A DNA stretch of 39,952 nucleotides from a virus (Duplodnaviria; Heunggongvirae; Uroviricota; Caudoviricetes): the IMG/VR virus record IMGVR_UViG_2880384115_000007. One strand, given 5' to 3'. Each line of letters starts with the position of its first letter. Positions within the stretch are counted from its first letter, which is position 1. Under the pieces are notes generated by a model that did not search any database, had not been told where the DNA came from, and was given only the letters and a program-made list of their open reading frames with translations. Of this stretch, positions 5,725 through 34,517 are shown in pieces. Both the position numbers and the translations under genes were made by a program.

Positions 5725-5741
5725 ATTACCTTTCAGGTAAT
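5725..5741. promoter_or_regulatory. Dyad ATTACCTTTCAGGTAAT (TTACC-N5-GGTAA), candidate operator
   Basis: Perfect 7-3-7 inverted repeat between divergent tailspike gene and LexA-box gene; same dyad recurs at 10 other intergenic sites. Confidence 0.6.
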
Positions 5742-5777
5742 TTGCAAAACGTGCTGGATAGCAAACAAATTATTTGC

Positions 5778-5797
5778 TACTGTATAAATATACAGTT
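5778..5797. promoter_or_regulatory. LexA (SOS) box
   Basis: TACTGTATAAATATACAGTT matches the CTGT-N8-ACAG enterobacterial LexA consensus at 18 of 20 positions; directly upstream of the 5818..6075 gene. Confidence 0.8.
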
Positions 5798-5817
5798 ATT
5801 GCATGGAGAAGATTAAG

Positions 5818-6075
5818 ATGCAGCAGTATCACTATCCACTGGAAGAGGGATTTACCGAAAGGATTCACACGCCGGGAGGCGTCAGGTCACTGGTGGAGGG
5901 ATCGCACTTGATGAAATTACTCCGGGATCTCGATAAGGATGGATTTAATGTCGATGGCCCACTTGCCGAACTGACTGCACTGATTAACTACGTCACCAGC
6001 TCACAGATGTCTATGCAGGATCTGCAAACACATCTCGACTATTGTGCCGAACAATTACGAAAACAAACCAGATAA
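5818..6075 (+). CDS. Small LexA-controlled protein; candidate SOS-inducible antirepressor
   Basis: Start placed at second ATG (5818), which has a GGAG RBS; the 85-aa product aligns with the C-terminal ~65 aa of the Bro-N protein at 6391..7101; LexA box sits in its promoter. Confidence 0.5.
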   Translation: MQQYHYPLEEGFTERIHTPGGVRSLVEGSHLMKLLRDLDKDGFNVDGPLAELTALINYVTSSQMSMQDLQTHLDYCAEQLRKQTR

Positions 6076-6211
6076 GATTTGAAATTACCAATAGGAGTGC
6101 TTATATTTACCTTTGCAGTAAATTTACATCGCACTCCTCTTGTGCCATAGTAATCGGGCACTGGCAAAATCCAGTGCCGGGATTGGCGTCCCGGGTTACT
6201 AAGTGGCGCAT

Positions 6212-6235
6212 ACCACGCCAGACGTGGTTTTTTTA
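6212..6235 (+). terminator. Rho-independent terminator
   Basis: Stem ACCACG / CGTGGT with 5-nt loop followed by seven T; ends a structured untranslated stretch 6076..6235. Confidence 0.55.
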
Positions 6236-6390
6236 TGCGTTAAGCACAGCTATATCCGAATTATGGTGGGCTGGGCAGGGGTCCGAAAGGACGCCGGTAC
6301 CACTTAGGCCGGTACGCCAACCTTGTCCAGTTCACCACCAGTAATTGGCGTTGCGGTGGTGATTAAAATCACTAAGTGGAGATAACCACC

Positions 6391-7101
6391 ATGGCTAATG
6401 CTCAAACTGCCATCTTCAAATTTGAATCTGTTAACCCTATCCGTTCCATCATTATCGATGGCCAACCATGGTTTGTAGCCCAAGACGTTTGTAGTGCGCT
6501 GCGTATCCAAAACGTCACCCAAGCACTTGAAAAACTGGATGATGATGAAAGGTCTATGTTCAACATAGGGCATGAACATCGTGCAATTTTTGACAGCCGA
6601 GTAAAAGAGATCAACATTATCTCCGAGTCAGGCCTCTACACACTGATCCTCCGCTGCCGCGACGCAGTGACACCAGGCACTATCCCCTACCGCTTTCGTA
6701 AATGGGTTACAGGTGAGGTTCTTCCTCAGATCCGCCGCACCGGAAGTTACATTAAAAACTCGCTCCCGCAGGAAGAACGCATAAAGATGGTTGCCGACCA
6801 GGTAGCCAACGCCACAGCATCAGCAATGATGCAGGCAATGAAGATAGAGAACAAAACCTACAGTGCCCCACTGAAGCCCGGCTACCGTAGCCTGATTCAT
6901 TCTCCGTCTGGTGTTCTCGGCCTGACGGAGAACTCACTGCTGATGAATCTGCTGAACCAGTTACAGGACGACGGGCACGACGTATCGGGCGCGGCGGCGG
7001 AGCTGACCACCATGTTCTGCTACATCGTTGGTGTGAGCAAATGCCTGCGTGATATCCAGACGCACGCGGAGTACATCAACGACAAGGCAGGGTTCTTCTG
7101 A
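6391..7101 (+). CDS. Bro-N domain protein (antirepressor-like)
   Basis: Start at ATG 6391 with GGAG RBS (track start 6376 is GTG); N-terminus has Bro-N hallmarks (FKFESVNPIRSIIIDGQPWFVAQDV...LDDDER...FRKWVTGEVLPQIRRTGSY); C-terminal domain homologous to the 5818..6075 product. Confidence 0.75.
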   Translation: MANAQTAIFKFESVNPIRSIIIDGQPWFVAQDVCSALRIQNVTQALEKLDDDERSMFNIGHEHRAIFDSRVKEINIISESGLYTLILRCRDAVTPGTIPYRFRKWVTGEVLPQIRRTGSYIKNSLPQEERIKMVADQVANATASAMMQAMKIENKTYSAPLKPGYRSLIHSPSGVLGLTENSLLMNLLNQLQDDGHDVSGAAAELTTMFCYIVGVSKCLRDIQTHAEYINDKAGFF

Positions 7102-7173
7102 CGGGCGGCGGCACAGGGATGTGCCTTTAAATAATTCTGTACAGATTGCAGACTGGGGGTGAATAGCGTACTA

Positions 7174-7188
7174 TTACCTCAAGGGTAA
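7174..7188. promoter_or_regulatory. TTACC-N5-GGTAA dyad upstream of the moron gene
   Basis: TTACCTCAAGGGTAA about 60 bp upstream of ATG 7248. Confidence 0.5.
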
Positions 7189-7247
7189 GAAAGCATTTTT
7201 AATCTTCCCTTCAAAACGCGTCCTGTAGCCAAACATGGGAGGACGAA

Positions 7248-7880
7248 ATGAGAACAAATACAACAAGAAAAGCGATGCCATACATTATCCCAGAAGCAGA
7301 TTTCGATAGAAAACTGAACATGTCTGAGAAGAACACTAGTCACACCGAAAGCTACTTAGCGAAAGGTGTGGTTGATTTCGTTCTTCCGGGATTCACAACA
7401 CCTTATGGTTATCGCCTTGTAAAATCTTGTAATGGCGATCATTACAGAATGATTACTACCAGCGATACTCCAGAAACGGTGTATGCGGTTAAGTTAATCT
7501 TTCGGGAAGATATCGTCGAAGCCAAAAGAACATGTACGCAGATCATGGTATGGCGTACGCCTAATGTTATTCATGACCGTGCTGTTCATGGTTTGCCTCA
7601 GATTTTTTTTCAGTTCTTCCTAGAGCAATATGCGATCGTTGTATCTGATGAGCAACAAACAATCGATGGGAGAAGATTCTGGGAAAGAATGATTTCTTGG
7701 GCTATAAACACCCCAGGATATAATGTATACGTTTCAGATGGCTCTGAAGAAGATAGACCTCTTAGCTTCATGGCATCATGGGATGATTTCTATAGCCAGT
7801 GGGCTGATTTCTGTTGGGGCAGTGATAAAGATGTGCATACCCACAGACTACTGGTTATAAGCAAAGATAAACTGCATTAA
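7248..7880 (+). CDS. Hypothetical protein, AT-rich moron
   Basis: 210-aa ORF with GGGAGG RBS and its own terminator; visibly more AT-rich than flanking phage genes; no recognisable motifs, no TM or signal peptide. Confidence 0.6.
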   Translation: MRTNTTRKAMPYIIPEADFDRKLNMSEKNTSHTESYLAKGVVDFVLPGFTTPYGYRLVKSCNGDHYRMITTSDTPETVYAVKLIFREDIVEAKRTCTQIMVWRTPNVIHDRAVHGLPQIFFQFFLEQYAIVVSDEQQTIDGRRFWERMISWAINTPGYNVYVSDGSEEDRPLSFMASWDDFYSQWADFCWGSDKDVHTHRLLVISKDKLH

Positions 7881-7882
7881 TA

Positions 7883-7907
7883 GAAGCCCGCAGCGCGGGC
7901 TTTTTTG
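7883..7907 (+). terminator. Rho-independent terminator
   Basis: GCCCGC-agc-GCGGGC stem-loop followed by six T, directly after the stop of 7248..7880. Confidence 0.7.
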
Positions 7908-7978
7908 TGGACGAAACAAAAGTCAGTGCTACACTCATTGACGCCACATTGAGGTGGCTTATAGATGGAAATTTCACA

Positions 7979-8140
7979 ATGAAAAAAGCATTTGCTGCAC
8001 TGTTCGTTTTGTTGTCTCTGGTAGCTTCAACTCAGGCCTTTGCCGGTCGTTGTCAGCACGACAGCGATACTGCCGCTGACGGCTCCCGCTGCGGTGGGCG
8101 TTCTGCGGATTCCCGCCCGGGCGGCGGTGGCATTCGTTAA
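7979..8140 (+). CDS. Small secreted Cys-containing peptide (hypothetical)
   Basis: In-frame ATG at 7979 gives 53 aa with signal peptide MKKAFAALFVLLSLVASTQAFA; sigma70-like promoter TTGACG-16-TATAGA at 7938..7965; below the usual ORF size cutoff. Confidence 0.35.
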   Translation: MKKAFAALFVLLSLVASTQAFAGRCQHDSDTAADGSRCGGRSADSRPGGGGIR

Positions 8141-8163
8141 AAACAAGGCCGCGAAAGCGGCCT

Positions 8164-8175
8164 GTGACATGTCAC
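8164..8175. repeat. Perfect 12-bp palindrome GTGACATGTCAC, copy 1 of 3
   Basis: Identical palindrome also at 25721..25732 and 27985..27996; this copy overlaps the stop codon of 8172..8468 at a convergent junction. Confidence 0.8.
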
Positions 8176-8468
8176 GCTCTTTTTCTGAATGATAGCCATT
8201 CGAAAAATGATGACATTCCACCGCAGACAATAGCAAAGATGATCCCACCAAAGAAGAGAAGGCCAGCCTGCCACCACTCCCACCGCCATACATCCACAGC
8301 GCCAACCATACCAACAATCGCTCCAACAAATGGAATATAGCTCACGATGAAAGCAATGGGGGCTGCAATTATCCAGTGCAATCCCCACCATGATTCAAGC
8401 CCAGCCATAATTGCTGCCAACTGAAAAAGACCAACGACGATATAAACAATGAATCCTATAGCTTGCAT
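8172..8468 (-). CDS. Small integral membrane protein (hypothetical; superinfection-exclusion candidate)
   Basis: 98 aa, almost entirely hydrophobic with Trp-rich loops; AGGTGA RBS; sits between internal virion genes and the moron island. Confidence 0.5.
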   Translation of the reverse strand: MQAIGFIVYIVVGLFQLAAIMAGLESWWGLHWIIAAPIAFIVSYIPFVGAIVGMVGAVDVWRWEWWQAGLLFFGGIIFAIVCGGMSSFFEWLSFRKRA

Positions 8469-8663
8469 GTAGTCACCTATTTACCCAGTAAAAATCAGAG
8501 GCCTCCCCTCAATAAGGCTTGCAACAAGAACTACTCCCTGCACAACAAAGATGAACCAGCAAATAGCTTGAGTCTGAGGGTTAAGAAAATATTTGTAGCG
8601 GTCAATAAATAACAGCCCACCAGAAATTATCACACTCAAAATAATTAAAAACACAACACTTCC

Positions 8664-11138
8664 TTATTGCGGAGTGACATCCTGAGGTCGCCACCAGTAT
8701 GTCTGGTTAAACTCTTTCTTCGAACGTTGCTCCATTTTACGCAAATAGCCTGGTGAAAAATACTCCTGCATCTGGTTAAAGATCATGTGATCAAGAGCTG
8801 CCTTCAAGTACCAGAGATTCGCACCTGGCATCAGCCCTTTCCCAAGTTTCACCAGATCACCACCAGTCTGCTCGTTCTTCCCTTCCACAGCATTTAATGG
8901 TATGCCCTGAGCTATCTTCACTACGTCATCAACCAGGCCAGCTACCGGGCCAAGCATCGACGCCAGCGCGCCGCTTCCGTACCTAGTGTGATCTGACAAT
9001 AAAAAGTCACCGTAAAGGCCAAGACCACCACCTTTCAGTAGAGCACCAAGCCAAAATTTAGCAGCATCTTCTCCTGTCATCTCGCGAGGATTACGACCAG
9101 ACGCAAGGTCGTTAAGTTGCTGCGACAAAGCGCCAAGAATGGTCGTACTGGCAATAAACGTCGCAATATATGCCGCACGCCCACCAGCAGACGGCATACC
9201 CATAGCGCGTGACCAGTGACGCATAACCACCGAGATAGGGAACGATTTAAACAGGAAAACACTTCTCGTTAATTCACCTTTCCATGTTCCACGCTGAATA
9301 CCAGAACCGGTTATCAGTTGCTCACGTGCTCCCGGTGTAATAACAGCCATATCAACTTCTTCAGTTACGGCACCGAGCAGTTTACGCATTGCCTCAAATT
9401 TCACGCGTTCAGGCTCACCAAGATGTTTAACTGCTGAATCAGGGATACGCATAATGCTTTCCGGTGTCAGCATCGTATTATTACCGTTCCCCCAGTCCTC
9501 CTGTTGCGCCAGCTTCCATACGCTCCAGTCTGTGTCAGTAATCCCTTTACTTTTCAGGATACGAAAATCAGAGTCATCGAGGCTACGAAGGTCTGGTGTC
9601 CGTGACACTACTTCTCCCAGGCTTCCCATCATGGTTACGCCATAGGCGCGCTTGTGCGCATCTGACCATGCTGTAAGCCCACTGGCACGCATTACCGCCG
9701 TTGCCGCCCAACGAGACACAGACGGCCCCATATTATCCATCGCCCAGCGGTTAACGCTGCCAAGTAGAGATTCCATCGCCAGGCCAGCGCGGCGCGCCCG
9801 CGCAAGCTCAGTACGGTTCGTTGGGTCCATAGCTTCAAGCTGGTTGCGGAATAACTGGTTCATTGGAAGGTTGGTCACCTTCGCAGACAGATACATGGTT
9901 CCAAGATCAGAGAACGATGATAGCAACGCGGATCCGAGTCTGCTGGCAACCAGCCAGTTGCGGATATTGTCAGACCATCGCGCGATGTGCGGATTCGCTA
10001 CAGGCTGTGTCTTTCCGGAAATAAAGTTGTACAGATTCTCTGTGTTGTTCGCCAGCCGCTCGACTTTACCGGTTTTACTCGGGTTAGCTGTTGCCGTTTC
10101 TGCCTTCACCTGATCAAGAAGAGAGCGGAAAACATGATCGGGGTTTGGGCCATATGTTTCCACCAGTGCAATATCTTTACTGATACCTTCCAGGTAACCG
10201 ACCATGATTTCCCATAGAGAGCGATCGCCATAAAGTTGCTGATATTGCAGATATGAATCTGCATCTTTGAAATGTATCTGTCGTGATGCATTACCACGGT
10301 TAGCACGTGCGCCGGAAATTCGCATGCCGGTATCAGTAAGCTTATTCAGCCCACCAGTGGCGATTGTGTTATAAGCTTCTCCAAGAAATGCAGACAACTC
10401 GGCATCGTTCATCAGTTGTCCATCGGCTCGGATATAATATTTGCGATCCAGCTTACCTATAACATCGCTAACCCACTTATCCTTTGATACCGCCCCAACC
10501 TTTTCCATAGAATGATGTTGAGGGATCCCCCAGTTTTCGAGATAGCCAATGTCCCCACCAGCATCATTAAACCGGCGGCGCAGTAGCTCTGTCACTTCTC
10601 TCCACGCCTTAGCACCTTTTCTTGCTTTAGCATTGCCAGTATTTTGCCCCCGCATTTCATATACCAGGTCACGTACGCCCGCTTCATCTTCAAACAGACC
10701 AAAAAAGCGAGGATCAACTGCTTCGAATGCCTCCTGCAATTGACTCAATGCATAATCACGGGTGGCTTTTGTTCTGGATTCAACAGAGAGGAAATTCGAT
10801 TTACCGTCTGCATTAAAAGCAATAGTACGGTTAAGAGCGCCAAGTTTCCCATCAGCCCCTTGATAGCTATTGATAAATTTATCCAATCTCTGACGTGCGG
10901 CTATAGTGAGGGCCACACGACGTTTCTTTAATGCCGCTTCTCGCTGTAATTCTTCAGATGCCAATTGTGCTGCACGATATAGCCGCTCTGATTCGGAAAG
11001 TTGTCTCCACGACATCGGGTCATCACGAGCAATAGAGCGCATATTTCGATAAATGCGGTCTTCAATGTTCTGTATTTCTCGCGCCGTTAACGTGCGCTGC
11101 GCCGCCTGCTGGACCGCTTGTATACATTCCTGTCTCAT
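8664..11138 (-). CDS. Large internal virion / DNA-ejection protein
   Basis: 824-aa ORF last in a run of three large genes after the tail tubular genes, matching the internal-core gene positions of T7/epsilon15-type podoviruses. Confidence 0.55.
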   Translation of the reverse strand: MRQECIQAVQQAAQRTLTAREIQNIEDRIYRNMRSIARDDPMSWRQLSESERLYRAAQLASEELQREAALKKRRVALTIAARQRLDKFINSYQGADGKLGALNRTIAFNADGKSNFLSVESRTKATRDYALSQLQEAFEAVDPRFFGLFEDEAGVRDLVYEMRGQNTGNAKARKGAKAWREVTELLRRRFNDAGGDIGYLENWGIPQHHSMEKVGAVSKDKWVSDVIGKLDRKYYIRADGQLMNDAELSAFLGEAYNTIATGGLNKLTDTGMRISGARANRGNASRQIHFKDADSYLQYQQLYGDRSLWEIMVGYLEGISKDIALVETYGPNPDHVFRSLLDQVKAETATANPSKTGKVERLANNTENLYNFISGKTQPVANPHIARWSDNIRNWLVASRLGSALLSSFSDLGTMYLSAKVTNLPMNQLFRNQLEAMDPTNRTELARARRAGLAMESLLGSVNRWAMDNMGPSVSRWAATAVMRASGLTAWSDAHKRAYGVTMMGSLGEVVSRTPDLRSLDDSDFRILKSKGITDTDWSVWKLAQQEDWGNGNNTMLTPESIMRIPDSAVKHLGEPERVKFEAMRKLLGAVTEEVDMAVITPGAREQLITGSGIQRGTWKGELTRSVFLFKSFPISVVMRHWSRAMGMPSAGGRAAYIATFIASTTILGALSQQLNDLASGRNPREMTGEDAAKFWLGALLKGGGLGLYGDFLLSDHTRYGSGALASMLGPVAGLVDDVVKIAQGIPLNAVEGKNEQTGGDLVKLGKGLMPGANLWYLKAALDHMIFNQMQEYFSPGYLRKMEQRSKKEFNQTYWWRPQDVTPQ

Positions 11139-11143
11139 TTAAT

Positions 11144-19864: not shown

Positions 19865-19914
19865 ATACACTCCTGCAATAAAGGGGCCGAAGCCCCTTGT
19901 CTCATCCGCGAGGC

Positions 19915-24642: not shown

Positions 24643-24732
24643 ATCAATGACTCCGTACGCAATTAAATTATTACCAATTTAACCACATATGATTTATTTA
24701 TCGTAGAAGGTTGACATTTGACGCGCGAATTA

Positions 24733-24747
24733 TTACCTTTCAGGTAA
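24733..24747. promoter_or_regulatory. TTACC-N5-GGTAA dyad in the portal-operon promoter region
   Basis: TTACCTTTCAGGTAA; TTGACA hexamer at 24711..24716 and conserved box AACCACATATG at 24681..24691 nearby. Confidence 0.55.
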
Positions 24748-25069: not shown

Positions 25070-25146
25070 GTGGTATTAGCTCAGTTGGACAGAGCAACCG
25101 CCTTCTAAGCGGTTGGTCGCAGGTTCGAATCCTGCATGCCACGCCA
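25070..25146 (+). tRNA. tRNA-Arg (anticodon UCU)
   Basis: 77-nt cloverleaf folded by hand: 7-bp acceptor stem (one GU), D-arm GCTC/GAGC, anticodon stem ACCGC/GCGGT with loop CTTCTAA (anticodon TCT), T-arm GCAGG-TTCGAAT-CCTGC, 3' CCA encoded. Confidence 0.85.
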
Positions 25147-25763: not shown

Positions 25764-25806
25764 ATCCTCATCAGAGGATATCAACGACATTATCCCCACC
25801 AGCGGA

Positions 25807-27282
25807 TTAAGCATATGGATCGTAATCTGTGATGGCCTTGCCTTGCTGGTTCTGCTGCCCGGGAATTCGCAGACGCTTCGACACAGGGAACGCAAACGTC
25901 AGCAGTAGCGCATCGCCTTTACCAGGAGAACGCCCAAGCCGCTCCTTGATATCTTCCTTCGGTTCGATAACGATTTTACCGTCCACTCGAACTTTGTACT
26001 CTGCCGCAGACAGGTCGTCCGCTGTTTCCTGGTCATCCAGCATGCCGCCCAGCCTCAGCCATGTCTTGCATGAGTTGAACATCTCCCCACGCTTGTTGAG
26101 CATCTGCGGGTCAGTAGACGCGCCACCGAACGGAACAAGTTGCCATGTACGACCCCAGCCATCACCGATTGACTTCAGACCAGTTCCGTAACCGAAGTCG
26201 ATGAACACCGCGTCAGCCTGGTACTGGTCTTCAAAGTCAGCGATACGCTTCGCCATAATCAGATCGTCGGTGGTCTTGTTACCAGTCCATAGCACCTTAC
26301 TGTGCAGCCCCTGCCGCAGGTATATCACCGCGTCATCAACGCCTGAATATGCCGGGTCAACACCGATTATCACCGGAGCATGCGCCACCTGCGCAGCGGT
26401 TACCACCCGTTTCATTGCCTCATCAGTAAGACCGGTAGGGATAAACTGCAATTCAGATGCATCAGGGAATATGCCGCGCACACGGATTTTAACGAAGTCG
26501 CTGTCTTCCCCGTAGTCATCAACCCATTTCTGCAACTGCTGTTTGTTAGTGCCTTCCACCGTCCGGCTGTCAATCTGCGCAGTTTTCCAGCGGTGTTTAT
26601 ATTTGCGGAAACATTCACGGAATCGCCCGGTATTACGCGTCGGGTTTCCGAACGCCACCCAGATAATCTCAGTGTCTTCGTCCGTTAGCGCACCTTCGGC
26701 AACTTCCCACACCAGATCCGCAATATTCGACGCTTCATCGAATACCACGATGATGCGTTTGCGCTCGTTGTGTAGTCCGGCGAATGCCTCAGTGTTGTGC
26801 TCAGACCAGGGGATTGCGTCAGCTCGCCACCGCTTGTCGTGTCCAGGGTCATTGCTGTACATCGCGGTAGCTGTACAGGTAAACCAGTCTTTCGTGATAG
26901 CAAGGTTTGACCACTTGATAATTTCCGGCCAGGTCTTCGTTCGTAGCTGGTTGTCGGTGTTGGCGGTCACCACGACCTTACAATCCTCGCAAGTGGACAT
27001 GCCCCAGTTGATCAGCATTGAGATGAATGCGGATTTACCAATACCGTGACCCGAAGCACGTGCCAGCATAAGCGGCTGATAGCGCGTCTCTGGATTCTGC
27101 AGGTGATCACGTATCTCTCGGAACGCATCAGCCTGCCACTTACGTGGGCCGGTAGCATGTGCCAGTTCAGTCCCCTCTTCCCCCCACGGGAACGCATAGA
27201 GGGCATAGCCAAGCGGATCGTGAGTGAACCCTGCAATATCCTCGATCAACTGCTCTTCAGGAGATAACGCTGTATCTGTCAC
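25807..27282 (-). CDS. Terminase large subunit
   Basis: 491 aa; N-terminal ATPase region with Walker-A-like GHGIGKS and C-terminal nuclease-like region; GTG start overlapping the small-subunit stop. Confidence 0.8.
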   Translation of the reverse strand: MTDTALSPEEQLIEDIAGFTHDPLGYALYAFPWGEEGTELAHATGPRKWQADAFREIRDHLQNPETRYQPLMLARASGHGIGKSAFISMLINWGMSTCEDCKVVVTANTDNQLRTKTWPEIIKWSNLAITKDWFTCTATAMYSNDPGHDKRWRADAIPWSEHNTEAFAGLHNERKRIIVVFDEASNIADLVWEVAEGALTDEDTEIIWVAFGNPTRNTGRFRECFRKYKHRWKTAQIDSRTVEGTNKQQLQKWVDDYGEDSDFVKIRVRGIFPDASELQFIPTGLTDEAMKRVVTAAQVAHAPVIIGVDPAYSGVDDAVIYLRQGLHSKVLWTGNKTTDDLIMAKRIADFEDQYQADAVFIDFGYGTGLKSIGDGWGRTWQLVPFGGASTDPQMLNKRGEMFNSCKTWLRLGGMLDDQETADDLSAAEYKVRVDGKIVIEPKEDIKERLGRSPGKGDALLLTFAFPVSKRLRIPGQQNQQGKAITDYDPYA

Positions 27283-27875
27283 TGATTACCATCCTGACGT
27301 TCTTTGAGTCGCTTCCTGGCTGCTGCTATGCGATCAGCAATTGTCACATTCACATTAACATCCAGACGTTCTTTGAACGCGTTGACATCAACATGCTTAC
27401 CAATCAGCTCAAGGTTCTTCACCTTGTCAGGCCATTTAATTTTTTTGAGGATTGTCTCTATCGAATCCTCGTTCATGTTCATGATGGTCGATGACAGATC
27501 AAAGCCACTAAGCGTAGTGCGCCAGATTTTCGGCCACTCACGGATTGGTTTAAGGCTCCCATCGTCGTTGAGGATGTCGATCACGTCCATCTGGTCGATC
27601 TCCACCAGGCGCATGAGAACGTAATCAGCACTGACGCGCATTCGTTTGTTGCGCTCCTCCATCAACTCGGCAATCCGTTTTTGAATGCGTTCATCGCGCA
27701 TCATGACGCTGGCTTTAACTGCCGCTGTATTTGGGGAGAATCCTGCGTTAATCGCTGCCTGAGTCTGGTTTTCAGGCGTTTTGATGTATGACTGGCAATA
27801 AGCCTCCTGCATTGCTGTTAGTGGCTTAAATTGCGTTGATTTGCGTTTATAGGTTTTAGGTTCAGCAGGCATCAT
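27279..27875 (-). CDS. Terminase small subunit
   Basis: Start moved to ATG 27875 (RBS GGTGG upstream); conserved block YCQSYIKTPENQTQAAINAGFSPNTAAVKAS typical of small terminase subunits; the track's longer N-terminus would put the palindrome at 27985 inside its RBS. Confidence 0.65.
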   Translation of the reverse strand: MMPAEPKTYKRKSTQFKPLTAMQEAYCQSYIKTPENQTQAAINAGFSPNTAAVKASVMMRDERIQKRIAELMEERNKRMRVSADYVLMRLVEIDQMDVIDILNDDGSLKPIREWPKIWRTTLSGFDLSSTIMNMNEDSIETILKKIKWPDKVKNLELIGKHVDVNAFKERLDVNVNVTIADRIAAARKRLKERQDGNQ

Positions 27876-27984
27876 AACCACCGTGGTAATAGTTACCGTT
27901 TTGGTAATAGTACCATGCAAAATAAAGCCGCCATAGTTGGCGGCAGTATCCAAAACCGTCAAATTCATCATGCATAATCTACTC

Positions 27985-28340: not shown

Positions 28341-28446
28341 TCCACGCCAGATTGATTAATGACTCCCAGGTAATATAAACCCGGATACCAGCAGCCAGGC
28401 CGAAACCAATCACCATGGCATAAAGCAGAGCGTTGCACTTGTTCAT
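28324..28446 (-). CDS. 40-aa hydrophobic peptide (hypothetical)
   Basis: In-frame ATG 28446 preceded by strong AGGAGGTGA RBS; product MNKCNALLYAMVIGFGLAAGIRVYITWESLINLAWSAIRG is a single TM helix. Confidence 0.35.
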   Translation of the reverse strand: MNKCNALLYAMVIGFGLAAGIRVYITWESLINLAWSAIRG

Positions 28447-29354
28447 CACTTCACCTCCTGCGGCGGTTCTGGTAGCGGCATCCAGTGTGACGGTTTCCAC
28501 GACGCACCAGGAATTATCCACCCATCATTAGCGTCAGGATGCCCCGGGATGTAAGTCGCCCATTTCATTCGCCAGTCACCTTTCCTGTCAAACTCCACGG
28601 CAACAAGAACGGCTGTTTTGGTATCCGGCATTCGCTCACTACAGCTTATCAAACCATCCGGAGTTACCGGATAGTTGCCAGCCAGTCTACGCAAAACAGT
28701 CTTAACCGCCTCAATACGGTCATCATCGCAACTTTCCAGCGTATCTATGCGATCGAGCATGATGATGGCGTTATCAATATCAGGATTGCCGGTCCACTCA
28801 TTACCGCGATTGGATTCGGCAGCCTGGTTGCCGCGTACTGGTTGATTATCGGCTTTACCCAGTCTGTCGTTGCTGCATGAATGCCCTTCCAGCAAGGCCA
28901 ATGCTTGTCGCATGAAATACGCAATATGTTTGCCGTGGTAATCGTCTTCATCGATGTGAAAAGCGATACTGCGGATGTATTCAATTGCGTTTTCAATGGC
29001 CTCAGGCGTTATCGGAGTTGGTCCATCGAATTCGGGCATGTCAGGACCTTTTCTGATAGCTTTAGCCAGCTCCAGCGGGTCATCGTAAAGCCAGTCGCCA
29101 GTTTGTGGGTGATTTGCTTCTGCAAGCTGCGCAGCCCATTCAAGACCATCTTTTTGACCTTGGAGATAATCAAGTGGCAACTCTTCATGATTACTTGCAG
29201 GTTCGGCACTATCAGCTTCGCGCCGCTTCTGTAGCTCTGCTGCCATCGCTCTCACGACTTCAACTGGTGCCCTTGCAGCAAACTCTATGTTGGTGATTAG
29301 CTCATTAAGATATTGCTCGCCTGGATACTGTTTCTTATCGGTTATAGTGGTCAT
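28446..29354 (-). CDS. DUF551-like phage protein
   Basis: Start at ATG 29354 with AAGGAGAG RBS (track start is TTG); C-terminal block WIIPGASWKPSHWMPLPEPP typical of DUF551. Confidence 0.5.
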   Translation of the reverse strand: MTTITDKKQYPGEQYLNELITNIEFAARAPVEVVRAMAAELQKRREADSAEPASNHEELPLDYLQGQKDGLEWAAQLAEANHPQTGDWLYDDPLELAKAIRKGPDMPEFDGPTPITPEAIENAIEYIRSIAFHIDEDDYHGKHIAYFMRQALALLEGHSCSNDRLGKADNQPVRGNQAAESNRGNEWTGNPDIDNAIIMLDRIDTLESCDDDRIEAVKTVLRRLAGNYPVTPDGLISCSERMPDTKTAVLVAVEFDRKGDWRMKWATYIPGHPDANDGWIIPGASWKPSHWMPLPEPPQEVK

Positions 29355-29355
29355 A

Positions 29356-30926: not shown

Positions 30927-30987
30927 CTTTACCCTCGCTTATCCACATAACTTATTGATAACATTGATAACTAAAAAGATCGTCGAT

Positions 30988-31332
30988 TCAGAACTCTTCG
31001 ATATTCCAGCCACCACCTGCTTTCTTTGGTTTAACCGTTACCCCGATGATTCGGAACGGATACTGATCTGCGGCGACTTTGGTTTTCACCCTGGCGTCGT
31101 CGGTCCAGAAACCTTTCACTTCGTGCAGTTCCATCTCGCCGGTGGCGAGCATCACAGCAAAATCGGGCGTATAGAACGTGTTGTCAGCTAACCGCAGCTT
31201 GATACCCTCAAATCGATACCAGACGATTTCTCCTGCACGTTTACGCAGCTCAAGGTGCTGGCAATACGCAGATTCTGTTTTGTTCATCTGACCTGTTTTG
31301 AGTCGACCAAGAGCCTGTATCTGTTTTCTCAT
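30988..31332 (-). CDS. PD-(D/E)XK-type nuclease (DUF1064/resolvase-like), putative
   Basis: 114 aa with YTPDF...ELHEVKG nuclease-like motif; RBS GAGG lies inside a TTACC-N5-GGTAA dyad. Confidence 0.45.
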   Translation of the reverse strand: MRKQIQALGRLKTGQMNKTESAYCQHLELRKRAGEIVWYRFEGIKLRLADNTFYTPDFAVMLATGEMELHEVKGFWTDDARVKTKVAADQYPFRIIGVTVKPKKAGGGWNIEEF

Positions 31333-31335
31333 GAT

Positions 31336-31412
31336 TTACCTCTGAGGTAATTAAAAACCACATAAGACACGAAATCAATAGATTTTAGAATATTTTATTA
31401 CCTAACAGGTAA
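31336..31412. promoter_or_regulatory. Promoter/operator cassette with two TTACC-N5-GGTAA dyads and conserved box
   Basis: Dyads at 31336..31350 and 31398..31412; box AAAAACCACATA at 31353..31364; TCGACA-like hexamer just upstream in gene orientation. Confidence 0.55.
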
Positions 31413-31449
31413 TTGTCGAGGCGTAAAAAAATGCGCTATCGCGCTGGTA

Positions 31450-32250
31450 TTACTTGATAAATCCTGCCGCCTTTCCCCGCCTGTATTCCTCCATCAGCCA
31501 CTGCGCCGGTGTTATTCCCCCAAGGGTGGCGGCGTTAGGCATGCACCCGAAACTTCGCCCTGGTGGATGGTAAACGTCTCTCCCTGTGTCCGGAGGCGTA
31601 CTCATGGGCTCTGGCTTTGCCTGTATGCTGATCACCGGATCGGGTATCTGCTGTCCGGAAGCCACCTTTTTCGCCCAATCATCGAGCAGCCTGCGTGCGT
31701 GTTTCTCAACCTCAATCTCGCTAAGCTGGCGCTGATACATTGCACGGCGGGTATCACATACGACCCAGTACATAACCGGATGTCGCCACGGGAATCTTTC
31801 GGGACCACCAGGATATAAACTTTTTTCCTTGCTGTACCGGTGAAACTCCGCCATCACATCGTCAATGGTGACGCCAAGAACCATCTTGCTGTCTTTGCAC
31901 CACTTGATAAATTGCCCTGGAGACGGCCAGAACGGAGATTCACTGGCGCGGGCGTGGCGCATACCAGCAGAAACCTGTTCACGGGTTCGGATCCCCCCTT
32001 CGGCAAACGCAGCAATCCACTGCTGTTTTGCAGCAACTTCCTGCTCTGGCGTCTTCAGGTTGGTTACCACTGCCGCCGGAAACAGTTGTTTCAGCTGTTT
32101 AAAAAGGGCATCAACAAGCCTCTCTGCTGACATGTTCACCACATTGTCATTGTTGACGTACTGATGCTCATAACCTGACATGCGAGAAAGGGCTTCTCCG
32201 TCACGGTTTTGTATCGCGGTAAAAACGTTGTTCACAAGAAATCCTCCCAT
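31450..32250 (-). CDS. Replication protein P-like (helicase loader)
   Basis: Block QWIAAFAEGGIRTREQVSAGMRHARASESPFWPSPGQFIKWCKD closely parallels lambda P (QWVLAFRENGITTMEQVNAGMRVARRQNRPFLPSPGQFVAWCRE, recalled from memory); follows the O-like gene. Confidence 0.7.
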   Translation of the reverse strand: MGGFLVNNVFTAIQNRDGEALSRMSGYEHQYVNNDNVVNMSAERLVDALFKQLKQLFPAAVVTNLKTPEQEVAAKQQWIAAFAEGGIRTREQVSAGMRHARASESPFWPSPGQFIKWCKDSKMVLGVTIDDVMAEFHRYSKEKSLYPGGPERFPWRHPVMYWVVCDTRRAMYQRQLSEIEVEKHARRLLDDWAKKVASGQQIPDPVISIQAKPEPMSTPPDTGRDVYHPPGRSFGCMPNAATLGGITPAQWLMEEYRRGKAAGFIK

Positions 32251-33047
32251 GCTTCAGGGCTGTTCCAGTGCGGAACGTTGTTATCAGGTAATGTTGATTG
32301 CTTCTGTCTGCTAATCTGCAGCCGCCTTGCCAGCTTCTGCTCCCACTGTGCCTGATGGTATGCCTTACCCTCAGCCATCCAGTAAATTCTGAACTCTGCA
32401 AGTTCCTGTGCCGTTGGCAGACTGTCCAGGTAGATCCCCTGCAATGAGCTTTTCCGAAGAAAGTCATCTGATGGCTGCCATTGTTCATGCATGACAAATT
32501 TGCCTAATTGCCCTGGCCCACCAGGAGGAACAAAGTTATTCATCACGGCGTTGTTTGCGCCGGGGTCATGAGGCACAGAATCCCCGCTTTTTGTCCTGCT
32601 CTCCCTCTCTTGGTTAAATGACTGGTTATATGACTGGTTCTGGATCCCGTTTTTGGGATCATTCAACATCCCGTTTTTGGGATCATTCAACATCCCGTTT
32701 TTGGGTATATTCCCGTTTTCGGTAACATTACCGTTTTCGGGTTCATTGCCCCCCTCCCGGTTGCCTTTAATGTTCCCGTTTTTGGTTATATTAAGAGAGA
32801 AAACCCGCACTCTTTTTGTCGCTCCCTTTCTCTCTCCGGTATCTGAAATAAGCCCCATTTTCATGAGCGATATAAGCCCGGCCTGCACGGTTTTTTTATT
32901 CAGGCAAGTGTCTTTAACGAGGCGTTCTATGCTGGGGTAGCAGAGGTTATATTCATCGGCTCTGTCAGCCATCGAGAGCAGTATGAGCTTTAATGATGAG
33001 CTACCTGGATCTGTCTCCCAGGCCCAATCTGTTGCATGTCTGCTCAT
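32232..33047 (-). CDS. Replication initiator O-like protein with internal origin
   Basis: N-terminal HTH-like domain, central NGMLNDPK tandem repeat encoded by DNA iterons, C-terminal domain; GGAG RBS; precedes the P-like gene as in lambdoid replication modules. Confidence 0.6.
   Translation of the reverse strand: MSRHATDWAWETDPGSSSLKLILLSMADRADEYNLCYPSIERLVKDTCLNKKTVQAGLISLMKMGLISDTGERKGATKRVRVFSLNITKNGNIKGNREGGNEPENGNVTENGNIPKNGMLNDPKNGMLNDPKNGIQNQSYNQSFNQERESRTKSGDSVPHDPGANNAVMNNFVPPGGPGQLGKFVMHEQWQPSDDFLRKSSLQGIYLDSLPTAQELAEFRIYWMAEGKAYHQAQWEQKLARRLQISRQKQSTLPDNNVPHWNSPEAWEDFL
32644..32790. repeat. Iteron array (putative origin of replication) inside the O-like gene
   Basis: Two perfect 24-bp tandem repeats ATCCCGTTTTTGGGATCATTCAAC (32644..32691), each with an internal ATCCC...GGGAT inverted repeat, plus at least four degenerate copies; flanked by direct repeat TGACTGGTT at 32618..32640. 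Confidence 0.7.
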
Positions 33048-33062
33048 GATTAATCTCCGCTA

Positions 33063-33263
33063 TCAGCTTGAGTGTTGTGGGGAGGAATTAATCATGATCT
33101 GCTTAATCTCTGCCCTGATGCGACGGTTTGATTCCATGGTGCACTCAACACAGTGTCCGTTGTAAACCCAGCGTTCACTGTCATGTCCGTGCTTACATGG
33201 TTTTCCGGTGTAGTAGCGTTTAAGTCCGCGCTTTGCGGCATCAATACGTGTAATGATTTCCAT
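33063..33263 (-). CDS. Small Cys/His-rich (zinc-finger-like) protein in the cII position
   Basis: ATG at 33263 gives 66 aa with CKHGHDSERWVYNGHCVEC; the track's longer version starts at TTG. Confidence 0.4.
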   Translation of the reverse strand: MEIITRIDAAKRGLKRYYTGKPCKHGHDSERWVYNGHCVECTMESNRRIRAEIKQIMINSSPQHSS

Positions 33264-33372
33264 GGTAAGCCCTGTTATTAGTATTGGGATTACGGTTATT
33301 TTGTGCTGACACAAAAAAAAGATCAACCATATTTGGTTTTTTATTACCTTTAAGGTGCGAATAGATATGAAA

Positions 33373-33392
33373 AGACCGCCGGGTGGCGGTCT
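33373..33392 (-). terminator. Stem-loop downstream of the cro-like gene (possible weak terminator)
   Basis: Perfect 8-bp stem AGACCGCC / GGCGGTCT with GGGT loop; only three U follow on the minus strand, so intrinsic termination is uncertain. Confidence 0.35.
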
Positions 33393-33413
33393 ACAGAGGG
33401 GTGTAGCTGGATA

Positions 33414-33644
33414 TCATGAGTAGAAGAAGTATGCCAGTTCTGCTTTTGAGCGCAACCATTGTCTTGTTTTACAGGCTTTAAAAAGCCCATTCATCAATAC
33501 TTTACCTGGCATTTTGCGCTTACCTGTTAAGTGAGTCTGGATATAGTGACTCGTCGTTCCGGCTTCCTGTGCGAAGGCTTCACGCTCATCCGGAGTAAGT
33601 GCAAGCCAGTGCTTTTTGAAATCGAAATGTCCGTTATCGCTCAT
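33414..33644 (-). CDS. Cro-like small regulator (putative)
   Basis: 76 aa, divergent from the CI-like gene across a 154-bp region with three operator dyads, followed by a stem-loop and the O/P genes; call rests on position, no sequence match to known Cro. Confidence 0.45.
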   Translation of the reverse strand: MSDNGHFDFKKHWLALTPDEREAFAQEAGTTSHYIQTHLTGKRKMPGKVLMNGLFKACKTRQWLRSKAELAYFFYS

Positions 33645-33680
33645 AGCTATTGCCTGATATTTATTTCAGATAATAAATAT

Positions 33681-33743
33681 TCACCCATAAGGTAACAAAA
33701 ATCAAGGATAGTTACCTATGAGGTGCATTTACCCGTTGGGTAA
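33681..33743. promoter_or_regulatory. Tripartite operator region between cI-like and cro-like genes
   Basis: Three dyads with identical 5-bp spacing: TCACC-N5-GGTAA (33681..33695), TTACC-N5-GGTGC (33712..33726), TTACC-N5-GGTAA (33729..33743). Confidence 0.6.
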
Positions 33744-33798
33744 TATTGCTTTAAATTGAATCATCTACTGATTCATATATGAGGCGATTTTCCAGAAA

Positions 33799-34383
33799 AT
33801 GAAAAGTATCCAGGACGTCCGCAGGCAAAATCTCAACGACTTGATCGACCGTGAATTCAATGGTGTTCAGACGCGGATGGCAGAAAAACTTGGAACTCAG
33901 GCAAATCTGGTAAACCGCTGGGCTCTTGGCAAGAAGGTTATCGGCGACCAGGTTGCGCGAAAAATTGAAGCTGCCGCCAATAAACCACGTAACTGGCTTG
34001 ATATCGATCGCTCGCTTTCTCAGGAAGGTTTTCAGCCTGTCGGCCCAAGCGACATTGGTCAGCTGGCGGCTCACAACCTGGAACGCTGGATGAGCGAAAG
34101 CCGCGACCTTTCAACACAGGGAAAACTTCACCGCGCATCCGGCGTCGCCCAGGTGACAATCAGCCGCCTGTTAAACAATGAGGTCAGCGTTTCCATTTCC
34201 ACCCTGGAGAATGTTGCATCCGCATTCGGGCGTCACGGCTATGAATTACTGATTCACCCGCACGACCCTGCGACCATCAACTATGACCGCTCGCGCTACG
34301 CATTGTTACCCGAAACCGAGAAAGCAAAGATCGAAAGTTATATTGAATTTGTCATCAACCAGAACGAAAAAAACAAACAATAA
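33799..34383 (+). CDS. CI-like prophage repressor, two HTH domains, no S24 peptidase domain
   Basis: N-terminus (MKSIQDVRRQNLNDLIDREFNGVQTRMAEKLGTQANLVNRWALGKK) resembles phage CI-repressor HTH domains; second HTH-like segment (VAQVTISRLLNNEVSVSISTLENVA); no Ala-Gly / Ser...Lys autocleavage module. Confidence 0.65.
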   Translation: MKSIQDVRRQNLNDLIDREFNGVQTRMAEKLGTQANLVNRWALGKKVIGDQVARKIEAAANKPRNWLDIDRSLSQEGFQPVGPSDIGQLAAHNLERWMSESRDLSTQGKLHRASGVAQVTISRLLNNEVSVSISTLENVASAFGRHGYELLIHPHDPATINYDRSRYALLPETEKAKIESYIEFVINQNEKNKQ

Positions 34384-34403
34384 AATCATACTTTTCAGTA
34401 AGT

Positions 34404-34428
34404 AAGCCGCCTTCTGGCGGCTTTTTTA
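34404..34428 (+). terminator. Rho-independent terminator after the repressor gene
   Basis: GCCGCC-ttct-GGCGGC followed by six T. Confidence 0.75.
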
Positions 34429-34440
34429 TTGCCTATACTA

Positions 34441-34517
34441 TTACCTAATGGGTAATTTTTTTAACTCATATCTATTGACATCAAACCAAATACGCATAAT
34501 TATTACCTCAACGGTAA
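34441..34517 (+). promoter_or_regulatory. PL-like early promoter with two operator dyads
   Basis: Dyads at 34441..34455 and 34503..34517 bracket a consensus -35 TTGACA (34475..34480); the second dyad sits where the -10/+1 is expected. Confidence 0.55.

What the first reader, a model, noticed from the sequence alone, without database searches (positions are those of the whole stretch)
5725..34517. Dyad TTACC-N5-GGTAA at 11 intergenic sites: possible dispersed operator regulon
The 15-bp dyad occurs with fixed 5-bp spacing at 5725..5741, 7174..7188, 24733..24747, 31336..31350, 31398..31412, 33344..33358, 33681..33695, 33712..33726, 33729..33743, 34441..34455 and 34503..34517 (some with one degenerate half-site, TCACC or GGTGC). 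All are intergenic and in promoter-proximal positions. Three sit between the divergent cI-like and cro-like genes and two flank the TTGACA promoter downstream of cI, the classic OR/OL layout. The others lie upstream of the tailspike and antirepressor genes, the moron, the portal operon and the nuclease gene. This suggests the immunity repressor directly controls promoters across the whole prophage, loosely like mycobacteriophage stoperators. I did not scan coding regions exhaustively.
Basis: seen in the sequence. Interest (0 to 1): 0.75.

Follow-up and report, generated by a model that had tools for sequence, protein, structure and literature searches.

The report
Known repressor operators of phiV10-like prophage
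The repeated TTACC-N5-GGTAA dyad is real and is almost certainly the binding site of the prophage's master repressor at nearly every lytic promoter, but the same sites are already annotated as repressor-binding sites in the closely related Salmonella phage epsilon15, so this is a rediscovery.

Summary
TTACC-N5-GGTAA occurs 9 times exactly (0.01 expected), and all 9 copies lie in the roughly 8% of the window that is non-coding. Three more were missed: two in front of terS and one in front of an isrK/C4-RNA plus Bro-N antirepressor module. The window is a phiV10/epsilon15-like (Uetakevirus) prophage. Its repressor is 100% identical to that of phiV10/ZX5 and is homologous to SPC32H Rep (PDB 5d50). 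A LexA-controlled Ant homologue is also present. The same dyad sits at the same syntenic positions in phiV10, epsilon15, SPC32H, Klebsiella BUCT711 and Enterobacter Tyrion. In those genomes it appears as conserved islands overlapping -35/-10 elements. The operator pairs that flank two promoters are spaced exactly 62 bp apart. The predicted Rep recognition helix (NLVNRW) is invariant. The epsilon15 GenBank record already marks seven of these sites as "repressor / lysogeny" binding sites. The dispersed-operator interpretation is therefore supported, though Rep binding was not tested here. The stoperator analogy is weak, because these sites are symmetric and sit at promoters; phage P1's scattered C1 operators are a closer analogue. 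Novelty: already known. Interest is low to moderate.

The parts
5726..5740 (.). Rep operator (exact) in the divergent ant-tailspike intergenic region. It lies upstream of the tailspike promoter block.
   Evidence: Conserved in all 6 genomes in alignment A6. It corresponds to the epsilon15 site 19895-19911 annotated as 'repressor'.
6107..6121 (+). Operator with 1 mismatch (AGTAA) abutting the -10 of promoter TTGAAA-17-TATATT (6079-6107). This promoter leads into the isrK-like and C4-like RNAs and the Bro-N gene.
   Evidence: The orthologous site is exact in phiV10 (20497), Tyrion (21393) and BUCT711 (17377).
7174..7188 (+). Operator (exact) abutting a -10-like TACTAT (7169-7174), upstream of orf210 (7248-7880, phrog_1349, function unknown).
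24733..24747 (-). Operator (exact) upstream of the p06/portal operon.
   Evidence: Invariant in alignment A1. It corresponds to the epsilon15 site 2931-2947 annotated as 'repressor'.
27875..27907 (-). Tandem operators, 27893-27907 (exact) and 27875-27889 (1 mismatch), 18 bp apart. They lie between a terminator (27927-27944) and the likely true terS start (ATG at 27872/27875). The second operator overlaps the Shine-Dalgarno sequence GGTGG.
   Evidence: The same pair occurs in phiV10 (87/105), epsilon15 (12/30, annotated as 'repressor') and Tyrion (67/85).
31336..31412 (-). Operator pair 31398-31412 and 31336-31350, 62 bp apart. The pair flanks promoter TTGATT (31378-31373)-17-TTTAAT (31355-31350) of the DUF1064 gene. 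The downstream operator covers the predicted start site and the Shine-Dalgarno sequence.
   Evidence: Alignment A7 has no indel between the operators in 6 genomes.
33344..33358 (-). Weak operator (2 mismatches) just after the cro-like gene's terminator (33373-33392), upstream of p42 and the replication genes.
   Evidence: Syntenic 1-mismatch sites occur in phiV10 (33112), Tyrion (35365) and BUCT711 (6032). Not significant on its own.
33681..33743 (.). OR-like cluster of three operators (33681-33695, 33712-33726, 33729-43; spacing 31 and 17 bp) between the cro-like gene and rep. The first lies in the spacer of the conserved rightward promoter TTGATT (33705-33700)-17-GAATAT (33682-33677).
34441..34517 (+). 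PL-like unit. Operators 34441-34455 and 34503-34517 lie 62 bp apart and flank TTGACA (34475-34480)-17-AATTAT (34498-34503). The unit follows the rep terminator (34404-34423).
   Evidence: It corresponds to the epsilon15 sites 32554-70 and 32616-32 annotated as 'repressor'.
33799..34383 (+). rep, the immunity repressor (194 aa). It has an N-terminal HTH domain and a middle HTH_3 domain, and no S24 peptidase domain.
   Evidence: Homologous to SPC32H Rep, PDB 5d50_A, E = 4e-42. 100% identical to phiV10 p40 and ZX5 ORF21. Pfam result.
33414..33644 (-). cro-like gene (76 aa), a small DNA-binding regulator divergent from rep.
   Evidence: phrog_35 'transcriptional repressor', E = 5.6e-13. Alignment A4.
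5818..6075 (+). ant, a small SPC32H-type antirepressor.
   Evidence: Homologous to PDB 5d50_E, E = 1.7e-47.
5778..5797 (+). LexA box TACTGTATAAATATACAGTT in the ant promoter region.
   Evidence: Conserved in alignment A6.
6158..7101 (+). Second antirepressor-like module: isrK-like sRNA (6158-6234), C4-like antisense RNA (6259-6342) and a Bro-N protein (6391-7101).
   Evidence: Rfam hits above gathering score. Pfam Bro-N. A ZX5 'anti-repressor' gene is annotated in the region homologous to this stretch; overexpressing the ZX5 ORF4 anti-repressor lowers the prophage titre.

Best explanation
The dyads are the operators of the prophage's master repressor Rep (33799-34383). Rep is an SPC32H/epsilon15-type repressor that forms tetramers and does not cleave itself. 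In the lysogen, Rep occupies about 14 palindromic ATTACC-N5-GGTAAT sites placed at essentially every lytic transcription unit. These are: the leftward early promoter (PL-like); the rightward cro-like promoter and rep's own promoter region (OR-like triple); the replication genes; the DUF1064/nin-like region; the late operon entry at terS; the portal operon; the tailspike (+lysis) promoter; orf210; and the RNA-gated Bro-N antirepressor module. In relatives there are also sites at the lysis cassette and upstream of int. At five promoters the last T of a -10-like hexamer is the first T of the operator, so bound Rep would cover the start site. At PL and at the DUF1064 promoter, a second operator exactly 62 bp upstream brackets the promoter, which fits one tetramer (two DNA-binding pairs) or cooperating tetramers clamping it. 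Induction does not work by repressor cleavage. SOS inactivation of LexA at the box in front of ant (5778-5797) lets Ant be made. In SPC32H, Ant breaks the Rep tetramer into dimers that bind DNA poorly, which would release all operators at once. What is shown here: the existence, enrichment, placement and conservation of the sites, and the homology of Rep and Ant. What is inferred: that Rep is the binding protein, the promoter assignments, bridging of the 62-bp pairs, and simultaneous derepression.
For: Enrichment and exclusively intergenic placement. Identity of the element and its regulators: the window is 97-98% identical to the phiV10 group; Rep is 100% identical to phiV10/ZX5 Rep; Rep and Ant are homologous to the SPC32H Rep-Ant complex 5d50. 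The epsilon15 record AY150271.2 annotates 7 'protein_bind repressor / lysogeny' features that coincide with the dyad. The same dyad occurs at syntenic positions in phiV10, SPC32H, BUCT711 and Tyrion. In five alignments of regulatory regions, the dyads and the -35/-10 elements are the conserved islands in otherwise diverged DNA. The Rep segment NLVNRW is invariant although overall identity is 43-78%. Of 66 sites in 5 genomes, positions 3, 4, 12 and 13 are invariant, and 20 departures in the arms are uncompensated against 0 compensated, which indicates a protein-DNA site rather than a hairpin. In 120 IMG/VR loci carrying dyad pairs, neighbour spacing peaks at 62 bp (122) and 63 bp (20), with smaller peaks at 17 bp (27) and 76 bp (10). 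In divergent loci (Rep N-terminal domain 44-57% identical) the dyad stays exact and the Rep helix stays N/S-L-V/I-N/S-R-W/Y, while the predicted Cro helix varies (SHYIQ to KKYVT, VNYIR, AGYIA and others). Overexpression of the identical ZX5 repressor abolishes free phage and cuts holin and endolysin transcripts by more than 99.9% (PMC9782041). SPC32H Rep binds palindromic sites as a tetramer, and Ant splits the tetramer (as summarised in PMC9638917). Rep has no S24 peptidase domain, and there is a LexA box at ant.
Against: No binding or expression data for these sites could be consulted. The three primary papers (Kropinski 2007, Kim & Ryu 2013, Kim 2016) are not in the held library. A 2023 paper states that the repression mechanism of SPC32H Rep 'has not been extensively characterized'. 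The generic promoter scan is no better than chance overall (12 found against 12.2 expected), so the promoter assignments rest on conservation and geometry. The single operators at 5726 and 24733 lie 40-60 bp upstream of the putative -10, so how they would repress is unclear. The Cro-like protein also has a conserved helix within the genus and may share the sites. Sites 33344 and 33712 (2 mismatches) are not individually significant. Site 6107 carries a change at an otherwise invariant G.
Confidence: 0.85

Rival explanations
1. The dispersed dyads are bound mainly or only by the small Cro-like protein (33414-33644), acting as a lytic-phase regulator. Rep would act only at the immunity region.
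For: The Cro-like protein is a predicted DNA-binding regulator (phrog_35). Its putative helix AGTTSHYIQTHLT is invariant within the five Uetakeviruses aligned. In lambdoid phages, Cro and CI share operators (established knowledge).
Against: In more divergent IMG/VR loci the dyad stays exact while the variable positions of the Cro helix change. The Rep helix motif is retained in those loci. The epsilon15 authors assigned the sites to the repressor. A site set that shuts every lytic unit fits a lysogeny repressor better than a lytic one.
Confidence: 0.07
2. The dyads act at the RNA or DNA-structure level, as small hairpins serving as RNase III sites, attenuators or terminator-like elements, and not as protein operators.
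For: Each dyad can form a 5-bp stem with a 5-nt loop. The terminator scan flagged 33729-33743. The epsilon15 record annotates RNase III sites elsewhere in the genome.
Against: The arms are conserved in sequence and do not covary: 20 uncompensated departures against 0 compensated, with the caveat that the mismatch limits used to choose the sites disfavour double changes. Several sites lie upstream of the -35 element, where they would not be transcribed. The stems are short, only 5 bp with two G-C pairs.
Confidence: 0.02
3. The sites bind a host transcription factor, or are by-products of a duplicated promoter cassette, rather than a phage-encoded repressor regulon.
For: PL and the DUF1064 promoter share the context TCTATTGA and identical geometry, which could reflect duplication of a cassette.
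Against: The single sites share nothing with that cassette except the dyad. The motif is retained in phages of four host genera together with a conserved phage-encoded recognition helix. I could not recall an E. coli regulator with this motif (own knowledge, not tested).
Confidence: 0.03

Closest known systems
Putative repressor-binding sites of Salmonella phage epsilon15 (GenBank AY150271.2; Kropinski et al. 2007)
   Same: The same dyad TTACC-N5-GGTAA and the same syntenic positions (terS, portal operon, ant/tailspike, PL pair, and the pair before the post-replication gene). The repressor family is the same and the phages belong to the same genus.
   Different: Only 7 sites are annotated in epsilon15; its OR triple and lysis-cassette site are not annotated. 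The window adds sites at the isrK/C4-Bro-N module and at orf210. It lacks the lysis-cassette site (no oac region) and the third PL operator. The phiV10 record itself annotates none of these sites.
SPC32H Rep-Ant lysis-lysogeny switch (PDB 5d50/5d4z; Kim & Ryu 2013; Kim et al. 2016)
   Same: Homologous Rep (E = 4e-42) and Ant (E = 1.7e-47). There is a LexA box at ant, no repressor autocleavage domain, and palindromic operators. SPC32H carries the same dyad at 10 exact sites.
   Different: Rep is only about 42% identical overall. The window also has a second, Bro-N type antirepressor module behind isrK-like and C4-like RNAs. I could not read the primary papers, so I do not know which operators were tested.
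Phage P1 C1 repressor with scattered operators and the immI (c4-icd-ant) operon
   Same: One repressor has many operators dispersed over the genome that control separate operons. One of these operons is an antirepressor operon gated by a C4 antisense RNA, and the repressor is inactivated by an antirepressor rather than by cleavage (established knowledge; C4-family RNA found).
   Different: P1 operators are asymmetric 17-mers. Rep's only Pfam matches are Cro/C1-type HTH families; from own knowledge P1 C1 is an unrelated protein, but the two were not compared here. P1 late genes are controlled through the activator Lpa.
Lambda OR/OL operators with CI and Cro
   Same: Divergent rep and cro-like genes with three operators between them. 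A leftward promoter with operators follows the repressor gene's terminator.
   Different: The operators are not confined to the immunity region. PL has two operators 62 bp apart rather than three adjacent ones. The repressor lacks the S24 autocleavage domain.
Mycobacteriophage L5-type stoperators
   Same: Many repressor sites lie outside the immunity region. The terS tandem pair sits downstream of a terminator with no clear promoter, so it could act as a roadblock.
   Different: Stoperators are asymmetric 13-mers that work in one orientation, lie inside transcription units and number about 24-30 (established knowledge). Here the sites are symmetric, number about 14, and overlap promoters.

Membership tests
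Uetakevirus (epsilon15/phiV10/SPC32H) Rep operator set | Palindromic site (A)TTACC-N5-GGTAA(T) | tested here: met
   9 exact sites and 5 degenerate intergenic sites. Position matrix from 66 sites.
Uetakevirus (epsilon15/phiV10/SPC32H) Rep operator set | The sites occupy the same syntenic intergenic positions as the epsilon15 features annotated 'repressor' | tested here: met
   terS, portal, ant/tailspike, PL pair and DUF1064/RuvC pair.
Uetakevirus (epsilon15/phiV10/SPC32H) Rep operator set | The element encodes an SPC32H-type Rep and a LexA-controlled Ant | tested here: met
   Matches to 5d50_A and 5d50_E. LexA box at 5778-5797.
Uetakevirus (epsilon15/phiV10/SPC32H) Rep operator set | Rep physically binds the sites and represses the adjacent promoters | not testable with these tools
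   Only indirect evidence: the ZX5 overexpression data and secondary summaries of the SPC32H work.
Lambda-type OR/OL immunity operators | Three operators between divergent repressor and cro genes | tested here: met
   33681, 33712 and 33729.
Lambda-type OR/OL immunity operators | The repressor carries a RecA-stimulated S24 autocleavage domain | tested here: not met
   Pfam finds only HTH domains.
Lambda-type OR/OL immunity operators | Operators are restricted to the immunity region | tested here: not met
   Seven sites lie outside the immunity region (33.3-34.5 kb): five 6-28 kb from rep and the DUF1064 pair about 2.4 kb away.
Mycobacteriophage stoperators | Asymmetric site that acts in one orientation relative to transcription | tested here: not met
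   The site is a perfect dyad.
Mycobacteriophage stoperators | Located within transcribed operons rather than at promoters | tested here: not met
   There are no exact sites in coding DNA. Most sites overlap or flank -35/-10 elements. The terS pair is the only possible roadblock-type site.
P1 C1-type dispersed operator regulon | Asymmetric 17-bp C1 operator and a C1-family repressor | tested here: not met
   The site is symmetric and 15-17 bp long. Rep's Pfam matches are HTH_3, HTH_26 and related Cro/C1-type HTH families only. No direct sequence comparison with P1 C1 was made.
P1 C1-type dispersed operator regulon | An operator-controlled antirepressor operon gated by a C4 antisense RNA | tested here: inconclusive
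   A C4-family RNA (66 bits) and an isrK-like RNA lie between an operator-bearing promoter and a Bro-N gene. Function was not tested.

The most novel reading that the evidence does not exclude
Rep acts as a whole-genome direct gate rather than as the top of a cascade. In this reading every lytic transcription unit, including the late operon entry, the portal operon, tailspike/lysis, int and a second antirepressor module, has its own operator. At key promoters one Rep tetramer bridges two operators held at a fixed 62-bp distance, close to six helical turns and so probably on one face of the helix, wrapping the promoter in a micro-loop. Ant-driven disassembly of the tetramer would then derepress the whole genome in one step. 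The half-site is also frozen across a much wider family (Rep N-terminal domain down to 44% identity). That would mean immunity specificity in this group is not set by operator sequence.
Probability: 0.35. Interest if true: 0.5.

Novelty: already known. Interest (0 to 1): 0.27.

Why it matters
This result gives a complete operator map, with coordinates, for a phiV10-type prophage. The deposited phiV10 record has no such annotation, and phiV10 phages are used as reporter and typing phages for E. coli O157:H7. The map corrects the likely terS start. It also shows that in this genus the repressor probably touches every lytic unit directly. That matters for engineering these phages, for predicting which accessory genes are silent in lysogens, and for understanding how an antirepressor can switch on a whole genome at once. 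The fixed 62-bp operator pairing is a concrete, testable clue to how the unusual tetrameric SPC32H-type repressor engages DNA.

Tried and rejected
I tried to read the three primary papers: Kropinski 2007 (PMC2698709), Kim & Ryu 2013 (PMC3807360) and Kim 2016 (PMC4983836). None is held, and literature searches for operator descriptions in this genus found nothing usable. Prior knowledge therefore rests on the epsilon15 GenBank features and on secondary summaries.

The generic sigma-70 scan gives no enrichment. I did not use it as evidence, only to locate candidate hexamers that are also conserved in the alignments.

I rejected the RNA-hairpin reading because there is no compensatory change in the arms. 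I rejected the stoperator reading because the sites are symmetric and at promoters.

The cI of Pseudomonas phage PseuP_224 is 39% identical to the Rep N-terminal domain. I checked its neighbourhood for the dyad and found no enrichment, only one TTACC-N4-GGTAA just upstream of cI. This lead was dropped.

The coding-region 1-mismatch hits at 5494 and 10183 were considered as possible internal operators. I rejected them because they are not conserved in phiV10 and match the chance expectation.

Loci L002, L005 and L006 were not available to Python, so their sites were taken from DNA search output.

Full report

Yes. The exact pattern TTACC-N5-GGTAA occurs 9 times in the 39,952-bp window against 0.01 expected from dinucleotide-preserving shuffles. 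With up to one mismatch there are 14 sites against 0.66 expected.

One is an exact site at 27893-27907, and next to it is a one-mismatch site at 27875-27889; both lie directly in front of terS. The third is a one-mismatch site at 6107-6121.

I built a gene map from homology to phiV10 proteins plus the remaining long ORFs. It leaves 3185 bp (8.0%) of the window non-coding. That fraction holds 9 of 9 exact sites (binomial p = 1.3e-10) and 12 of 14 sites with up to one mismatch. The two coding one-mismatch hits (5494, 10183) are absent from the near-identical phiV10 genes and match the chance expectation. The 27 coding two-mismatch hits are also at about chance level.

**2. What is the element?**

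The window is a phiV10/epsilon15-like podovirus prophage of the genus Uetakevirus. It is 97-98% identical to phiV10, PAS61, phiv142-3 and related phages over the immunity region.

- The gene at 33799-34383 is 100% identical to the phiV10 and ZX5 repressors. It is homologous to Rep of Salmonella phage SPC32H (PDB 5d50_A, E = 4e-42).
- It has HTH domains but no S24 autocleavage domain.
- The gene at 5818-6075 is a close homologue of the SPC32H antirepressor Ant (5d50_E, E = 1.7e-47).
- A near-perfect LexA box, TACTGTATAAATATACAGTT, lies at 5778-5797 just upstream of ant. It is conserved in all relatives.
- The 76-aa gene divergent from rep (33414-33644) matches a phage 'transcriptional repressor' family (phrog_35) and occupies the Cro position.

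**3. Prior knowledge**

The epsilon15 GenBank record (AY150271.2) already carries seven 'protein_bind / repressor / lysogeny' features, at 12-27, 2931-2947, 19895-19911, 32479-32494, 32554-32570, 32616-32632 and 35906-35922. Each coincides with an exact TTACC-N5-GGTAA. They lie upstream of terS, upstream of the portal operon, between ant (gp19) and the tailspike gene, downstream of the repressor gene (PL), and before the gene that follows the replication genes. These are the same positions as in the window.

The phiV10 record has no such annotation, but phiV10 has the orthologous sites. I could not read the epsilon15 genome paper or the two SPC32H papers because they are not held.

Secondary sources give the following:
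- SPC32H Rep binds palindromic sites as a tetramer whose DNA-binding pairs come from different dimers, and tetrameric Ant splits Rep into dimers (PMC9638917).
- The repression mechanism 'has not been extensively characterized' (PMC9986798).
- For ZX5, whose repressor is identical to the window's, overexpression abolished free phage and cut holin and endolysin transcripts by more than 99.9% (PMC9782041).

**4. Comparative evidence**

The dyad is equally enriched in five relatives:

| Phage | Sites with up to 1 mismatch |
|---|---|
| phiV10 | 14 |
| epsilon15 | 15 |
| SPC32H | 18 (10 exact) |
| Klebsiella phage BUCT711 | 13 |
| Enterobacter phage Tyrion | 15 |

In each of phiV10, epsilon15, BUCT711 and Tyrion the chance expectation is about 0.5-0.65. 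Checked against the deposited annotations, every exact site is intergenic or lies in an evidently mis-called ORF.

Alignments of five regulatory regions were made: portal upstream (A1), PL (A2), OR (A5), ant/tailspike (A6) and the DUF1064 promoter (A7). In all of them the dyads, the -35/-10 hexamers, the LexA box and the terminators stand out as conserved islands in otherwise diverged DNA.

Rep proteins are 43-78% identical overall, but the segment N-L-V-N-R-W (residues 36-41) is invariant. Over 66 sites from five genomes, positions 3, 4, 12 and 13 are invariant and the N5 spacer is AT-rich. Twenty departures in the arms are uncompensated against none compensated. This argues for protein recognition of duplex DNA and against a hairpin. 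The caveat is that the mismatch limits used to choose the sites disfavour double changes.

**5. Anatomy in the window**

(a) OR-like triple: 33681-95, 33712-26 and 33729-43, spaced 31 and 17 bp. The first lies in the spacer of the conserved rightward promoter TTGATT (33705-33700)-17-GAATAT (33682-33677).

(b) PL-like unit: rep terminator (34404-34423), operator 34441-55, TTGACA (34475-80)-17-AATTAT (34498-503), then operator 34503-17.

(c) An identically built promoter for the DUF1064 gene on the minus strand: operator 31412-31398, TTGATT (31378-73)-17-TTTAAT (31355-50), then operator 31350-31336, which also contains the Shine-Dalgarno sequence.

(d) A weak site, 33344-58, immediately after the cro-like gene's terminator.

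(e) terS: terminator (27944-27927), then two operators 18 bp apart, then the ATG at 27875/27872. The longer terS start annotated in phiV10 would put a terminator hairpin and both operators inside the gene. The shorter start used in epsilon15, SPC32H and Tyrion is therefore more likely.

(f) Single operators upstream of the portal operon (24733) and the tailspike promoter (5726).

(g) Operator 6107-21 abuts the -10 of TTGAAA-17-TATATT (6079-6107). Operator 7174-88 abuts TACTAT (7169-74) upstream of orf210.

At five promoters (PL, DUF1064, 6079, 7147, terS) the last T of a -10-like hexamer is the first T of TTACC. The promoter calls are inference, because the generic scan is not enriched over shuffles.

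**6. Spacing**

The PL and DUF1064 operator pairs are 62 bp apart centre to centre in the window, phiV10, epsilon15, SPC32H and Tyrion. In BUCT711 they are 62 and 63 bp apart. There are no indels between the operators in the alignments apart from one base in BUCT711.

Within that unbiased range, neighbour spacings are 62 bp (122) and 63 bp (20), with a minor peak at 76 bp (10). Outside the range there is a peak at 17-18 bp (32). These loci are related to each other, so the counts are not independent. They do show a strict length constraint of about six helical turns. This fits a tetramer with two DNA-binding pairs contacting both operators. From my own knowledge, in-vivo LacI loops of about 60-90 bp are a precedent.

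**7. Rep or Cro?**

Within the genus both proteins have invariant putative recognition helices. In more divergent IMG/VR loci that still carry 4-7 exact dyads, Rep keeps N/S-L-V/I-N/S-R-W/Y. In the same loci the variable positions of the Cro-like helix change (SHYIQ to KKYVT, VNYIR, AGYIA, ALYIM, VAYVE, TGYIE, VHYIK). It does not exclude Cro sharing some sites.

**8. Mechanism and verdict**

Most likely (confidence about 0.85), the dyads are Rep operators. Rep directly represses essentially every lytic transcription unit. Induction proceeds by this route: LexA inactivation, then Ant synthesis, then Rep tetramer disassembly, which would release all sites together.

The transcription units with no dyad nearby are rep itself, tRNA-Arg and p03; the upstream region of the TraT-like/DUF5384 genes lies beyond the left end of the window and could not be checked. 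These are plausibly the units expressed in the lysogen.

The best functional analogue is the scattered C1 operator set of phage P1, including a C4-RNA-gated antirepressor operon. Mycobacteriophage stoperators are a poorer analogue.

The site set is orthologous to one already annotated in the type phage of the genus, so the finding is a rediscovery. What may be new is the complete map for a phiV10-type genome, the -10-abutting geometry, the invariant 62-bp pairing, and the persistence of the half-site across a wider Rep family.

Noticed in passing
window 6158-6234 and 6259-6342 (+), between ant and the Bro-N gene (6391-7101): Rfam hits above gathering score to the isrK Hfq-binding sRNA (67.7 bits) and the C4 antisense RNA (66 bits). 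Together with the operator-bearing promoter at 6079-6121, this resembles the P1 immI (c4-icd-ant) module and the Gifsy isrK-antirepressor module. It would be a second antirepressor circuit alongside the LexA-controlled Ant.
   Followed up: partly
window 5670-5694, 24662-24689 and 31356-31364 (all on the minus strand): A second motif, TATGTGGTT, occurs 3 times (0.29 expected), always downstream of a Rep operator. At the tailspike and portal promoters it forms CATATGTGGTT-N5-GGTAAT followed directly by a -10-like hexamer (TAGAAT or TAATTT). The portal copy sits in a roughly 55-bp block that is nearly invariant (three variable columns) across six genomes. It may be an element of activator-dependent late promoters that includes a Rep half-site.
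   Followed up: partly
window 27872-27971 (minus strand); phiV10 41-120: The terS start annotated in phiV10 (and the longest ORF here) would place a rho-independent terminator and both operators inside the gene. The start used in epsilon15, SPC32H and Tyrion (ATG at 27872/27875 here) is more likely correct.
   Followed up: partly
window 32611-32747, inside the DnaT-like gene (32232-33047, minus strand): Tandem iteron-like repeats: 24-bp unit ATCCCGTTTTTGGGATCATTCAAC x2.6 at 100% match, followed by 18-bp units x3.1. This is probably the replication origin embedded in the initiator gene, as in lambda O.
   Followed up: no
window 25070-25146 (+): tRNA-Arg (TCT) between the terminase and portal gene blocks. 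SPC32H has a tRNA-Arg at the corresponding place. No Rep dyad lies nearby.
   Followed up: no
window 1-1290: Two plus-strand genes, a glycine-zipper/TraT-like lipoprotein (1-516) and a DUF5384 protein (532-1071), lie beyond Rz. Among the phages searched they are shared at full length only with phage TL-2011b. They are probably morons. The phiV10 oac gene and the lysis-cassette operator next to it are absent from the window, and the tailspike C-terminal part differs from phiV10.
   Followed up: partly
phiV10 26870-26884, epsilon15 26882-26896, SPC32H 26960-26974, Tyrion 28568-28582: A conserved one-mismatch dyad (TTACCYTAAAGGTAT) lies about 43 bp upstream of int in relatives, which suggests Rep also controls int. 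The window ends at the int start codon, so the site cannot be seen here.
   Followed up: no
IMG/VR loci L012, L014, L030, L083, L097, L105 and others: Phages whose Rep N-terminal domain is only 44-57% identical to the window's still carry multiple exact TTACC-N5-GGTAA sites. The operator half-site therefore seems frozen across a family wider than the genus, which raises the question of how immunity specificity is set.
   Followed up: partly
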